The notes under the pieces were generated by a model. That model ran no database searches and had not been told where the DNA came from. It was given only the letters and a program-made list of their open reading frames with translations. The translations under genes and the position numbers were made by a program. This document shows positions 100 to 555 of a stretch of 555 nucleotides of DNA, piece by piece. This DNA is from a phage. The DNA is taken from the sequence record EF517108.1; one strand, written 5' to 3'. Numbering within the stretch: the stretch's first letter is position 1; the number at the start of each line of letters is the position of its first letter.

Positions 100-107
100 G
101 GGAGGAG
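100..107 (+). promoter_or_regulatory. Shine-Dalgarno ribosome binding site for the 112-261 CDS
   Basis: GGGAGGAG at 100-107 (core GGAGG 101-105), 6-nt spacer (AGACTC) before the ATG at 112. Read directly from the sequence. Confidence 0.7.
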
Positions 108-111
108 ACTC

Positions 112-261
112 ATGTTCCGCTTATTGTTGAACCTACTGCGGCATAGAGTCACCTACCGATTTCTTGTGGTACTTTGTGTTGCCCTTGGGTACGCATCTCT
201 TATTGGAGACCTCAGTTCACTGGAGTCTGTCGTTTGCTCTATACTCACTTGTACCGATTAG
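112..261 (+). CDS. 19.5: Small hydrophobic phage protein of unknown function, 49 aa (T7 gene 19.5-like); translation MFRLLLNLLRHRVTYRFLVVLCVALGYASLIGDLSSLESVVCSILTCTD
   Basis: ATG at 112 preceded by a strong SD; open frame of 49 codons ending at TAG 259-261. Basic N-terminus (R3, R10, H11, R12, R16), then a hydrophobic stretch (about residues 17-31), then a Cys-containing tail (C22, C42, C47). Position (last gene before the right-end repeats and terminal repeat) and length match what I recall of T7 gene 19.5; the exact residue identity to T7 was not verified by alignment. Confidence 0.8.
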   Translation: MFRLLLNLLRHRVTYRFLVVLCVALGYASLIGDLSSLESVVCSILTCTD

Positions 262-500
262 GGTCTTCCTGACCGACTGATGGCTCACCGAGGGATTCAG
301 CGATATGATTGCATCACACCACTTCATCCCTATAGAGTCAAGTTCTAAGGAATACCCATAAAGAGCCTCTAATGGTCTATTCTAAGGTCTATACCTAAAG
401 ATAGGCCATCCTATCAGTGTCACCTAAAGAGGGTCTTAGAGAGGGCCTATGGAGTTCCTATAGGGTCCTTTAAAATATACCATAAAAATCTGAGTGACTA
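262..500. other. Non-coding right-end region between the last gene and the terminal repeat
   Basis: No ORF longer than about 22 codons on the + strand and none with a credible RBS on either strand; dense with short repeats and small palindromes. Consistent with the non-coding right end of T7-group genomes. Confidence 0.6.
343..429. repeat. Array of imperfect heptamer-type short repeats (CCTAAAG family), resembling the short-repeat region inside the right end of T7
   Basis: Copies read from the sequence: TTCTAAGG 343-350, CCCATAAAG 355-363, TTCTAAGG 380-387, CCTAAAG 394-400, CCTAAAG 423-429. Further copies lie inside the terminal repeat (CCTAAAG 517-523 and 541-547), and related copies occur upstream (CATAAAG 8-14 and 94-100). 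A 7-bp direct repeat GGTCTAT sits at 374-380 and 386-392. Confidence 0.6.
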
Positions 501-555
501 TCTCACAGTGTACGGACCTAAAGTTCCCCCATAGGGGGTACCTAAAGCCCAGCCA
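501..555. repeat. Start of the right-hand direct terminal repeat (terminal redundancy) of a T7-like genome; the repeat continues beyond the window
   Basis: TCTCACAGTGTACGGACCTAAAGTTCCCCCATAGGGGGTACCTAAAGCCCAGCCA matches my recollection of the first 55 bases of the T7 genome left end. The boundary cannot be proven from this window alone because the other copy is not present here. Confidence 0.6.
524..540. other. Short GC-clamped hairpin / inverted repeat (CCCCC-ATA-GGGGG) within the terminal repeat
   Basis: CCCCC at 526-530 and GGGGG at 534-538 are reverse complements separated by a 3-nt loop (ATA), with an additional T-A pair possible at 524/540. Flanked by CCTAAAG repeats on both sides. Function not assignable from sequence. 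Confidence 0.4.

What the first reader, a model, noticed from the sequence alone, without database searches (positions are those of the whole stretch)
112..261. Gene 19.5: an orphan 49-aa basic-then-hydrophobic small protein at the extreme end of the genome
The ORF has a strong RBS and is clearly meant to be translated. The product has a cluster of basic residues in the first 16 positions, a roughly 15-residue hydrophobic core and three cysteines, which is the profile of a small membrane-associated or membrane-inserted peptide. As far as I know the T7 protein is non-essential and functionally uncharacterised. Small membrane peptides in phages sometimes modulate lysis timing, membrane potential or host defences, but none of that is shown by the sequence.
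Basis: partly seen in the sequence, partly recalled or inferred. Interest (0 to 1): 0.4.

Follow-up and report, generated by a model that had tools for sequence, protein, structure and literature searches.

The report
T7 gene 19.5 hides second frame
The last gene of phage T7, a small membrane peptide already linked genetically to the timing of host-cell bursting, seems to carry a second, unannotated protein-coding frame inside it, probably read by ribosomes that slip forward one base, so this one short gene may make two membrane peptides.

Summary
Window 112-261 is gene 19.5 of a T7 variant (98.7% identical to T7), with a GGAGG ribosome site, 49 codons, a basic N-terminus, one hydrophobic helix and three cysteines.

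It is not an orphan. It belongs to NCBIfam NF040465, Pfam DUF5465 and PHROG 2193, and it is syntenic in more than 440 phage genomes. It is also not wholly uncharacterised. Published genetics tie it to lysis timing: A24D and E38G recur in holin- or lysozyme-deficient T7, and deletion gives small plaques.

The new result is comparative. In enterobacterial T7-like phages, codons 17-49 carry a second layer of coding constraint in the +1 frame.
- Changes silent in 19.5 become rarer than changes silent in +1. The ratio flips exactly at an invariant U_UUC (window 160-163).
- The +1 frame is stop-free in 65 of 66 distinct sequences and has no start codon.
- It ends at a fixed place, usually 19 nt past the 19.5 stop (window 278-280).
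- It keeps coding periodicity beyond that stop.
- Pseudomonas relatives (UUC, +1 closed) and gene 19 show normal patterns.

The best reading is +1 ribosomal frameshifting that yields a 55-aa trans-frame membrane peptide. This rests on computation only.

The parts
101..105 (+). Shine-Dalgarno core GGAGG, 6 nt upstream of the gene 19.5 ATG
   Evidence: Read directly. An AGGAG/GGAGG-type site 5-9 nt before the start is present in every homologous locus.
112..261 (+). Gene 19.5 coding sequence (49 codons plus TAG)
   Evidence: ORF list. Annotated as gene 19.5 in T7. NF040465, PF17553 and PHROG 2193. Intact in all 88 loci.
112..159 (+). Codons 1-16: basic, amphipathic N-terminal segment. It would be shared by both predicted products.
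   Evidence: Net charge +4. Substitution pattern is that of ordinary single-frame coding: changes silent in 19.5 at 1.40 per site against 0.45 for changes silent only in +1.
142..162 (+). Codons 11-17: the motif H-R-V-T-Y-R-F next to the membrane helix, the most conserved part of the protein
   Evidence: H11, R12, T14 and F17 are invariant and R16 nearly so, across enterobacterial and Pseudomonas phages.
160..163 (+). T_TTC (U_UUC in the mRNA): candidate +1 slip site. tRNA-Phe on UUU can re-pair with UUC.
   Evidence: TTT-C is present in all 67 distinct enterobacterial-type sequences, with no change at any position of codon 17. Pseudomonas relatives have TTC-C. The extra constraint starts here. 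UUU_Ynn is a known +1 shift-prone site in bacteria (PMC5009743).
160..207 (+). Codons 17-32 of gp19.5: predicted transmembrane helix FLVVLCVALGYASLIG
   Evidence: Hydropathy and additive insertion energy of -1.7 kcal/mol for residues 17-31. AlphaFold helix at 12-30. G26 is invariant.
208..258 (+). Codons 33-49 of gp19.5: acidic, amphipathic C-terminal helix with E38, C42 and C47
   Evidence: E38 and C42 are invariant and C47 nearly so. C42 and C47 show no or almost no change at first codon positions that are wobble positions of the +1 frame. This shows that frame 0 is still under selection here.
161..280 (+). Conserved +1 reading frame with no start codon: FLWYFVLPLGTHLLLETSVHWSLSFALYSLVPIRVFLTD, stop TGA at 278-280. 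Fused to residues 1-16 it gives a 55-aa trans-frame product.
   Evidence: Stop-free in 65 of 66 distinct sequences; no other alternative frame is. Amino-acid identity 55.6% against 53.5% for frame 0. Changes silent in +1 run at 1.29 per site against 0.71 for changes silent in 19.5; the ratio is reversed relative to codons 4-16, Fisher p = 8e-9. tblastn with this 39-aa product finds 722 phage records.
262..280 (+). Tail of the +1 frame beyond the 19.5 stop (..RVFLTD, then stop)
   Evidence: The +1 stop lies 19 nt past the 19.5 stop in 46 of 67 distinct sequences, and TGA, TAG and TAA are all used. The three hydrophobic codons changed 11, 1 and 12 times at positions 1, 2 and 3 (binomial p = 8e-4). 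The whole tail gives 29, 21 and 43. Overall nucleotide identity here is only about 0.37.
501..555 (+). First 55 bases of the right terminal repeat (context, not part of the gene)
   Evidence: Corresponds to T7 39778-39832. Each T7 record holds two matching places, as expected for a terminal repeat.

Best explanation
Window 112-261 is gene 19.5 of a T7 variant. It is the last gene before the right terminal repeat and is transcribed late from the phiOR promoter, which lies just upstream of the window.

It is translated into a 49-residue inner-membrane peptide. The basic N-terminus, with the invariant H-R-x-T-(Y/W)-(R/K)-F motif, would lie on the cytoplasmic side. One transmembrane helix follows. 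The acidic C-terminal helix, with invariant E38 and C42 and nearly invariant C47, would lie outside. This topology is inferred from charge and hydropathy.

Published genetics, not this work, indicate that the peptide acts on the membrane step of lysis and tunes its timing, as an auxiliary holin or as a modulator of the gp17.5 holin.

The new point concerns the enterobacterial T7, T3, BA14 and KP32-type phages. From codon 17 onward the same DNA also encodes a second conserved frame (+1, window 161-280). That frame has no start codon. It begins at an invariant U_UUC and ends at a fixed stop, usually 19 nt beyond the 19.5 stop.

The simplest mechanism, which is inferred, is +1 ribosomal frameshifting of tRNA-Phe from UUU to UUC. 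A fraction of ribosomes would then make a 55-residue trans-frame peptide. It would share residues 1-17 with gp19.5 and then continue with a different, aromatic-rich hydrophobic part and C-terminus (LWYFVLPLGTHLLLETSVHWSLSFALYSLVPIRVFLTD).

Two peptides with a common cytoplasmic head and different membrane parts could act as an opposing or cooperating pair in lysis timing. That last step is speculative.

My estimates:
- Real translated membrane peptide: about 0.9.
- Role in lysis timing: about 0.6.
- The +1 frame is under protein-coding selection: about 0.8.
- Entry to it is by +1 frameshifting at U_UUC: about 0.55.
For: Identity and translation:
- 98.7% identical to T7, annotated gene 19.5.
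- Family hits.
- Shine-Dalgarno site, start and stop conserved in 88 loci, with ATG to TTG or GTG replacements that keep a start.
- The Pseudomonas clade shows classical purifying selection, dN 0.09 and dS 0.97.

Membrane peptide: and the TMHMM prediction reported in PMC2680503.

Lysis link, from papers:
- A24D compensates for the 17.5 deletion and delays lysis in wild type; E38G arose in a lysozyme-deficient line (PMC2680503).
- Both mutations recurred, with rising mRNA, in an independent holin-deleted line (PMC8365609).
- A clean deletion gives small plaques and burst 152 against 224 (PMC12153263).

Second frame:
- T7 against T3: dS 0.23 in 19.5 but 1.92 in the adjacent gene 19 tail, while dN is similar.
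- Parsimony changes at codon positions 1, 2, 3: 34/13/44 in codons 2-13, 106/59/74 in codons 14-49, 169/115/409 in gene 19, and 17/7/43 in the Pseudomonas 19.5.
- Changes silent in 19.5 against changes silent in +1: 1.40 against 0.45 per site upstream of codon 17, and 0.71 against 1.29 downstream. Fisher p = 8e-9. The Pseudomonas control is 1.45 against 0.67.
- Third-position changes drop from a mean of 4.5 to 2.3 per codon exactly at codon 17.
- Only frames 0 and +1 are open: 66 and 65 of 66.
- The +1 stop position is fixed while the stop codon itself varies, and coding periodicity continues beyond the 19.5 stop.
- In several lineages a +1 stop lies 3 codons before F17 and no start-like codon follows it before the conserved W-Y.
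- UUU_Ynn is a recognised +1 shift site in bacteria (PMC5009743).
- No conserved RNA structure explains the constraint.
Against: - There is no direct evidence that the +1 frame is translated. I found no proteomic or ribosome-profiling data, and no known stimulator (stop codon, rare A-site codon, upstream Shine-Dalgarno-like site) is evident at the slip site.
- The region is short, about 100 nt. The sequences are related, and parsimony on a tree built from the same region is crude. The doubly silent class that sets the neutral rate has only about 4 sites.
- The +1 tail is not rigid. Its length is 19, 22, 25 or 31 nt, and one T7-like contig (L022) has a 1-nt deletion that rewrites it.
- The region lies in DNA involved in concatemer processing and packaging, so a nucleic-acid constraint cannot be excluded altogether.
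- The lysis role of gp19.5 rests on compensatory mutations and deletion phenotypes. The older deletion also removed the M-hairpin (PMC2680503). Hole-forming activity has never been shown, and there is no sequence similarity to holins.
- AlphaFold confidence for gp19.5 is modest (pLDDT 65.6).
Confidence: 0.6

Rival explanations
1. There is only one product. Gene 19.5 encodes only the 49-aa peptide. The extra conservation of its silent sites reflects a cis-acting nucleic-acid element that overlaps the coding sequence, such as part of the packaging or concatemer-processing signal, the secondary replication origin next to phiOR, or an element that stabilises the very abundant late transcript.
For: The gene lies between phiOR and the terminal repeat, in DNA used for concatemer processing and packaging (PMC9860248; M-hairpin cited in PMC2680503). 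The 19.5 RNA is unusually abundant (PMC6938266). A weak hairpin around the slip site shows a few compensatory pairs.
Against: - The constraint has a three-base period and follows the +1 codon positions.
- It starts at one codon and ends at a conserved +1 stop whose sequence varies among TGA, TAG and TAA.
- Beyond the 19.5 stop only the second codon positions (T) are kept.
- The consensus RNA fold is weak: -8.6 kcal/mol, covariation term -0.2, single-sequence z-score -0.15.
- The flanking intergenic DNA is poorly conserved.
Confidence: 0.15
2. The +1 frame is coding but is not reached by ribosomal slippage at U_UUC. Alternatives are initiation at a non-canonical codon inside 19.5, slippage by the RNA polymerase, or genomic one-base deletions that arise often in the phage population and switch individual genomes from one product to the other.
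For: At least five independent one-base deletions in short homopolymers fuse the frame-0 N-terminal part to the +1 C-terminal part in assembled phage genomes. One protein cluster has 12 members and another protein was seen on 5 contigs. In Yersinia phage Yep-phi the +1 frame is open far upstream and is annotated as an 82-aa CDS (PHROG 30163). T7 and the window have a TTG at 164.
Against: - No start-like codon is conserved between the last +1 stop and the conserved W-Y. T3-type phages have none before a CTG at the sixth +1 codon.
- The constraint begins at codon 17, not further downstream.
- A run of three T is short for polymerase slippage.
- The search that found the hybrids could only find +1 fusions, so their number says nothing about selection. 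Some may be assembly errors.
Confidence: 0.15
3. gp19.5 works in DNA maturation rather than in lysis. It would help to form or process the hairpin intermediate at the concatemer junction. Late lysis and small plaques would then be secondary to poor packaging.
For: The gene sits next to gene 19 (large terminase) and the concatemer junction. According to PMC2680503, Kim et al. 1997 suggested that 19.5 acts to generate the M-hairpin. The burst falls when the gene is deleted.
Against: - A 49-aa peptide with a transmembrane helix is an unlikely DNA-processing factor.
- The recurrent adaptive mutations arose specifically in holin- or lysozyme-deficient phages.
- I could not identify a convincing hairpin next to the gene. 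The 291-331 inverted repeat folds no better than shuffled sequence, z-score -0.39.
Confidence: 0.1
4. gp19.5 is a membrane peptide with a role unrelated to lysis timing, such as countering a host membrane-associated defence, excluding superinfecting phage, or altering membrane potential late in infection.
For: Small phage membrane peptides often have such roles (general knowledge). The gene is dispensable in laboratory hosts. It is conserved across many host genera.
Against: There is no match to any anti-defence family, and no host-specific phenotype has been reported in the papers found. The existing genetics point to lysis.
Confidence: 0.07

Closest known systems
T7 gp19.5 family (NCBIfam NF040465, Pfam PF17553/DUF5465, PHROG 2193)
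   Same: Same protein. It differs at 3 of 49 residues from the T7 reference (A23V, T31I, S48T) and is identical to a UniRef entry named 'Uncharacterized protein 19.5' of phage T7. It occupies the same position after phiOR and before the terminal repeat.
   Different: Nothing about the 49-aa product differs. None of these family descriptions, and none of the genome annotations I looked at, mention the overlapping +1 frame as part of the gene.
Phage holins and their partner antiholins (T7 gp17.5; lambda S105/S107 made from two start codons)
   Same: A small, late-expressed inner-membrane peptide with a charged end. Mutations in it shift lysis time and compensate for loss of the holin (PMC2680503, PMC8365609). 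As in lambda S, one gene may give two membrane peptides that share sequence and differ at one end.
   Different: There is no sequence similarity to gp17.5 and only a chance-level hit to one holin PHROG (E 0.11). Hole formation has never been shown. The two products would differ at the C-terminal side through a frameshift, not at the N-terminus through two starts.
+1 ribosomal frameshifting at UUU_Y sites in bacteria (argI error site, Yersinia YopN-TyeA fusion; influenza PA-X UCC_UUU_CGU)
   Same: The same tetranucleotide, UUU followed by a pyrimidine, on which tRNA-Phe can re-pair one base forward without an adjacent stop codon (PMC5009743). The result is a product with a shared N-terminus and a new C-terminus.
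   Different: Frameshifting is not demonstrated here and its efficiency is unknown. No stimulatory element was identified. The new frame overlaps the old one for 33 codons, so both C-terminal parts are encoded by the same bases.
T7 and T3 gene 10A/10B capsid frameshift
   Same: It is a precedent, in the same phages, for a second product made by programmed frameshifting late in infection (PMC5009743).
   Different: That shift is -1, lies near the end of the gene and adds an extension. Here the shift would be +1, one third of the way into the gene, and would replace most of the protein.
PHROG 30163 / Yersinia phage Yep-phi CDS00045 (82 aa, hypothetical)
   Same: The last 36-38 residues of this family are the +1-frame product (E 1.6e-8; sequence).
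   Different: It is an automatic call of a longer +1 ORF that runs through the 19.5 ribosome site in a few genomes. It has no function assigned and is not recognised as overlapping or as related to gene 19.5.

Membership tests
T7 gp19.5 family (NF040465 / PF17553 / PHROG 2193) | Sequence match above the curated cut-off | tested here: met
   NF040465: 84.9 bits against a cut-off of 33. PF17553: 37.8 bits against 25. PHROG 2193: E 3e-24.
T7 gp19.5 family (NF040465 / PF17553 / PHROG 2193) | Position: last gene, after the large terminase gene and the phiOR promoter, before the right terminal repeat | tested here: met
   The window aligns to T7 39278-39832. The same order is seen in T3, BA14, Q19, AP10, phiA1122 and Pseudomonas phages.
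Holin | Small protein with at least one transmembrane helix and a charged terminal domain | tested here: met
   Hydrophobic residues 17-31, N-terminal charge +4, C-terminal part with three acidic residues. AlphaFold helix at 12-30.
Holin | Sequence membership in a described holin family | tested here: not met
   Only PHROG 4712 at E 0.11. No alignment to T7 gp17.5. No Pfam holin family.
Holin | Forms membrane lesions that release endolysin at a set time; complements a holin-null phage | not testable with these tools
   Only indirect genetics exists: compensatory A24D and E38G, and late lysis of a deletion (PMC2680503, PMC8365609).
Holin | Encoded in the lysis cassette next to endolysin or spanin genes | tested here: not met
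   T7 genes 17.5 and 18.5/18.7 lie about 2-3 kb upstream, with the terminase genes in between. 19.5 stands alone after phiOR.
Programmed +1 ribosomal frameshift | Shift-prone site on which the P-site tRNA can re-pair in the +1 frame | tested here: met
   U_UUC at window 160-163, present in all 67 distinct enterobacterial-type sequences. UUU_Ynn is described as shift-prone (PMC5009743).
Programmed +1 ribosomal frameshift | Conserved open +1 frame downstream that lacks its own start and shows protein-coding selection | tested here: met
   65 of 66 open. No conserved start. Substitution classes and periodicity.
Programmed +1 ribosomal frameshift | Stimulatory element (slow A-site codon or stop, upstream Shine-Dalgarno-like site, downstream structure) | tested here: inconclusive
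   The A-site codon is CUU, CUC or CUG. No Shine-Dalgarno-like site lies just upstream. There is only a weak hairpin with little covariation.
Programmed +1 ribosomal frameshift | A trans-frame protein is detected | not testable with these tools
   No proteomic or ribosome-profiling data for this region were found in the papers searched.

The most novel reading that the evidence does not exclude
T7-group phages of enterobacteria make two membrane peptides from gene 19.5 by +1 ribosomal frameshifting at U_UUC. The +1 frame arose by overprinting after the split from the Pseudomonas relatives. The two peptides act as a timing pair at the membrane, comparable to a holin and its antiholin, and so account for the 'second holin activity' that has been inferred for T7 but never assigned. 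On this reading the recurrent adaptive mutations A24D and E38G owe their effects partly or wholly to the +1 product. There they read as P to T at an invariant proline, and S to G.
Probability: 0.25. Interest if true: 0.8.

Novelty: new member of a known kind. Interest (0 to 1): 0.62.

Why it matters
T7 is one of the most thoroughly annotated genomes, and its gene list has hardly changed since 1983. A conserved, unannotated coding frame in its last gene would be a real addition.

It also bears on an open question. Deleting the T7 holin delays lysis only slightly, so another membrane-acting factor has long been suspected, and gene 19.5 is the only candidate that evolution experiments have pointed to. 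If the locus makes two peptides, earlier results need re-reading. A24D delays lysis in wild type yet compensates for holin loss, and every mutation or deletion studied so far altered both frames.

The finding gives simple, frame-specific mutations that would separate the two products.

There are practical consequences too. Silent recoding of gene 19.5 in engineered T7 genomes would not be silent. Phage annotation pipelines currently miss this frame, or mis-call it as a separate hypothetical gene.

Tried and rejected
1. Conserved RNA structure as the cause of silent-site conservation. RNAalifold gave -8.6 kcal/mol with a covariation term of -0.2, and the single-sequence z-score was -0.15. Rejected as the main cause.
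2. A DNA hairpin next to the gene (possibly the M-hairpin). The inverted repeat 291-331 folds no better than shuffled sequence, z-score -0.39. I could not locate the M-hairpin; the original papers are not in the library.
3. Recent horizontal transfer as the cause of low dS. Rejected because codons 2-16 of the same gene show the normal third-position rate.
4. Free exchange among L, V, I and F in a membrane helix as the cause of high first-position change. Rejected because the Pseudomonas clade of the same family shows the normal pattern.
5. An antisense gene. The antisense frames are open in only 16, 32 and 1 of 66 sequences.
6. An independent start for the +1 frame. No conserved ATG, GTG or TTG exists.
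7. Similarity to the T7 holin, to solved structures or to Pfam families for either product. None found.
8. Structure prediction. gp19.5 gives three helices at pLDDT 65.6. The trans-frame peptide folded alone gives one long helix, which is uninformative for a hydrophobic peptide without an alignment. No fold search was run for that reason.
9. A stop-freeness test by synonymous recoding gave only P = 0.02-0.12 per lineage and cannot separate cause from effect.
10. The representative-library search added only 10 distant family members.
Full report
**What is there**

The 555-base window is the right end of a T7-type genome. It is 98.7% identical to T7 positions 39278-39832, with 7 differences. The terminal repeat begins at window 501. 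The phiOR promoter lies about 50 bases upstream of the window.

- 112-261, ATG start, 49 codons.
- GGAGG at 101-105, six bases before the start.
- Basic residues R3, R10, H11, R12, R16.
- A hydrophobic stretch from F17 to G32.
- Cysteines at positions 22, 42 and 47.

This is gene 19.5. The protein differs from the T7 reference at three residues and is identical to a UniRef entry for a T7 strain.

**It is a real, conserved gene and not an orphan**

It matches NCBIfam NF040465 'T7_gp19.5' (84.9 bits, cut-off 33), Pfam DUF5465 and PHROG 2193. tblastn finds it in 446 phage records from Escherichia, Yersinia, Klebsiella, Salmonella, Serratia, Erwinia, Pectobacterium, Dickeya and Pseudomonas phages.

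In every annotated relative I fetched, it follows the large terminase gene and the phiOR promoter and precedes the right terminal repeat. All 88 loci collected have an intact ORF with a Shine-Dalgarno site. In two of them the ATG is replaced by TTG or GTG, which keeps a start.

The invariant residues are H11, R12, T14, F17, L18, V20, G26, E38 and C42. R16 and C47 are nearly invariant. C22 is not conserved.

**What kind of protein it is**

Charge and hydropathy fit a single-pass membrane peptide. The N-terminal 16 residues carry +4 and no acidic residue. Residues 17-31 have a favourable additive insertion energy. The C-terminal 17 residues are acidic and amphipathic. AlphaFold with a 12-sequence alignment gives helices at 2-9, 12-30 and 34-48 at modest confidence, pLDDT 65.6.

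By the positive-inside rule the N-terminus would be cytoplasmic and the C-terminal helix with C42 and C47 outside. This is an inference. There is no similarity to the T7 holin gp17.5, to any solved structure, or to a holin family beyond a chance-level hit.

**What is already known about its function (from papers)**

- Heineman, Bull and Molineux 2009 (PMC2680503) evolved T7 that lacked the 17.5 holin. The only strongly compensatory change was A24D in 19.5. In a wild-type background that change delays lysis by 2 minutes. E38G arose in a lysozyme-deficient line. They noted a TMHMM transmembrane prediction and proposed 19.5 as a candidate for T7's unexplained second holin activity.
- Xu et al. 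2021 (PMC8365609) saw the same two mutations, and rising 19.5 mRNA, in an independent holin-deleted line.
- A clean deletion gives much smaller plaques and a burst of 152 against 224 (PMC12153263).
- An older deletion that also removed the adjacent M-hairpin lysed late (cited).
- The 19.5 transcript is the most abundant T7 RNA late in infection (PMC6938266).

So 'functionally uncharacterised' is only partly true. The biochemical activity is unknown, but the genetics point to lysis timing.

**The unexpected result: a second coding frame**

The usual test for coding selection gave an odd answer. Across enterobacterial relatives dN/dS was about 0.6 and dS was very low. For T7 against T3, dS is 0.23 in 19.5 but 1.92 in the last 130 codons of the neighbouring gene 19, while dN is similar at 0.29 and 0.26. 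In Pseudomonas relatives the same gene behaves normally, with dS 0.97 and dN 0.09.

Parsimony counts of changes at codon positions 1, 2 and 3:

| Region | Pos 1 | Pos 2 | Pos 3 |
|---|---|---|---|
| 19.5, codons 2-13, enterobacterial | 34 | 13 | 44 |
| 19.5, codons 14-49, enterobacterial | 106 | 59 | 74 |
| Gene 19 tail, enterobacterial | 169 | 115 | 409 |
| 19.5, codons 14-49, Pseudomonas clade | 17 | 7 | 43 |

Third-position change falls from a mean of 4.5 to 2.3 per codon exactly at codon 17.

The +1 frame (window 161-280) explains this:
- It is stop-free across codons 18-49 in 65 of 66 distinct sequences. The other alternative frames are open in 6, 16, 32 and 1.
- Its translation is as conserved as gp19.5 itself, 55.6% against 53.5% mean identity.
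- tblastn with its 39 residues finds 722 phage records, more than gp19.5 does. They include 407 Klebsiella phages.

I classified substitutions on 62 distinct sequences by their effect in each frame.

| Region | Silent in 19.5, altering +1 (per site) | Silent in +1, altering 19.5 (per site) |
|---|---|---|
| Codons 4-16, enterobacterial | 1.40 | 0.45 |
| Codons 18-49, enterobacterial | 0.71 | 1.29 |
| Downstream region, Pseudomonas control | 1.45 | 0.67 |

The reversal between the two enterobacterial regions gives Fisher p = 8e-9. Doubly silent changes run at about 2.4 per site in both regions.

Frame 0 is still selected downstream. C42 and C47 show almost no change at first codon positions that are wobble positions in +1.

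**The frame continues past the annotated gene**

The +1 frame runs beyond the 19.5 stop and ends 19 nt later in 46 of 67 distinct sequences. In others it ends 22, 25 or 31 nt later. TGA, TAG and TAA are all used at the same place.

In this stretch overall nucleotide identity is only about 0.37. Yet the three codons after the basic residue keep T at the second position and vary at the first and third: 11, 1 and 12 changes (binomial p = 8e-4). The whole tail shows 29, 21 and 43. This is a coding signature in DNA that no annotation treats as coding.

**How the frame would be read**

The +1 frame has no conserved start. In BA14, AP10, Tarrare and fPS-26 a +1 stop lies three codons before F17. No start-like codon follows it before the conserved W-Y. 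T3-type phages have none until a CTG six codons in.

The constraint begins at codon 17. That codon is TTT followed by C in every enterobacterial-type sequence, with no change at any of its three bases. Pseudomonas relatives have TTC-C and a closed or unconserved +1 frame.

UUU followed by a pyrimidine is a recognised +1 shift-prone site in bacteria even without a neighbouring stop. The YopN-TyeA fusion of Yersinia is an example (Atkins et al. 2016, PMC5009743). That review, and the papers that mention gene 19.5, say nothing about frameshifting in this gene.

The predicted trans-frame product is 55 residues: MFRLLLNLLRHRVTYRF-LWYFVLPLGTHLLLETSVHWSLSFALYSLVPIRVFLTD. It has two hydrophobic stretches separated by ETSVHWS.

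**Alternatives considered**

- A nucleic-acid element is the main rival, because the region lies in DNA used for concatemer processing. It does not predict a three-base period, a sharp onset at one codon, a conserved stop position with interchangeable stop codons, or T kept at second positions only. No conserved RNA fold was found.
- Recent gene transfer is excluded by the normal silent rate in codons 2-16.
- Free exchange of hydrophobic residues is excluded by the Pseudomonas control.
- Antisense coding is excluded by stops.

**Caveats**

- The region is short and the sequences are related.
- Parsimony is crude.
- The tail length varies, and one contig has a one-base deletion that rewrites the tail (L022).
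- No stimulatory element is evident at the slip site.
- Nothing here shows that the trans-frame protein exists.

**Natural variants**

A profile of the +1 products, searched against the large protein collection, returned two things.
- An annotated 82-aa +1 ORF in Yersinia phage Yep-phi. This is the PHROG 30163 type.
- Several proteins that start as gp19.5 and finish as the +1 product, with junctions near codons 10, 26, 33 and 36. Four were checked at the DNA level. Each is a one-base deletion in a short homopolymer, three of them in near-full-length phage contigs. One protein cluster has 12 members and another protein is on 5 contigs.

The search could only find fusions into +1, and some may be assembly errors. 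They are therefore suggestive, not decisive.

**Consequences for earlier work**

A24D (GCC to GAC) changes the invariant proline of the +1 product to threonine. E38G changes a serine to glycine there. Every published mutation or deletion therefore touched both frames.

Of the three amino-acid differences between this window and T7, two (A23V and T31I) are silent in +1.

**Verdict**

The interpretation as a small membrane peptide is sound, but 'orphan' and 'uncharacterised' are not.

The gene itself is already known. The overlapping frame appears to be a new instance of known mechanisms: overprinting and +1 frameshifting at UUU_Y.

Noticed in passing
window 464-503: The block CCTTTAAAATATACCATAAAAATCTGAGTGACTATCT, which runs into the first bases of the terminal repeat, is the best conserved non-coding stretch among T7, T3 and BA14-type phages apart from the phiOR promoter. 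Mean pairwise identity is 0.58-0.79, against 0.2-0.4 for the surrounding DNA. It is probably the site where concatemers are cut.
   Followed up: partly
window 393-400, 421-428, 516-523, 540-547: Repeated ACCTAAAG motifs, and related TCTAAGG and TAAAGAG units, lie on both sides of the start of the terminal repeat.
   Followed up: no
L057 1143-1313; L089 601-768; L090 601-780; L091 601-771: Assembled phage contigs carry one-base deletions in short homopolymers (ACATTGG to ACATGG, GGGG to GGG, CC to C, GG to G). Each deletion fuses the frame-0 N-terminal part of gp19.5 to the +1-frame C-terminal part, and the ORF ends at the +1 stop. One such protein cluster has 12 member sequences and another protein is on 5 contigs.
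   Followed up: partly
P0017 (Yersinia phage Yep-phi CDS00045, 82 aa); PHROG 30163: In a few genomes the +1 frame stays open upstream through the 19.5 ribosome site and is annotated as a separate hypothetical protein. PHROG 30163 matches the +1 product at E 1.6e-8.
   Followed up: partly
L022, about 1115-1140: One T7-like viral contig has a one-base deletion just after the 19.5 stop. It changes the +1 tail from RVFLTD to RSSLPTDG. This is a counter-example to strict conservation of the tail.
   Followed up: no
L054 755-904 (Klebsiella phage EKp2): The otherwise invariant Cys42 of gp19.5 is Tyr (TGC to TAC). In the +1 frame the same change is Ala to Thr.
   Followed up: no
window 179, 203, 254, 303, 344, 351, 381: These are the seven differences from the T7 reference. 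The three inside gene 19.5 all change gp19.5 (A23V, T31I, S48T), and two of them are silent in the +1 frame.
   Followed up: yes
window 137-196 (alignment A2, columns 38-97): A weak predicted RNA hairpin places the U_UUC site in its loop and shows a few compensatory pairs (CG/AU at three positions), but many sequences break it. It could be a frameshift modulator or nothing at all.
   Followed up: partly
L003 923-1240 (phage BA14 AS7_0055); window 217-327 minus strand: Other overlapping ORF calls exist in some records: a 105-aa 'unknown product' in the +2 frame of BA14, and short minus-strand calls by PHANOTATE in the Shigella phages ESh1 and ESh2. These frames are not open across relatives.
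   Followed up: partly
L028 965, L035 965: Two T7-like contigs start gene 19.5 with TTG or GTG instead of ATG, behind an unchanged Shine-Dalgarno site.
   Followed up: no
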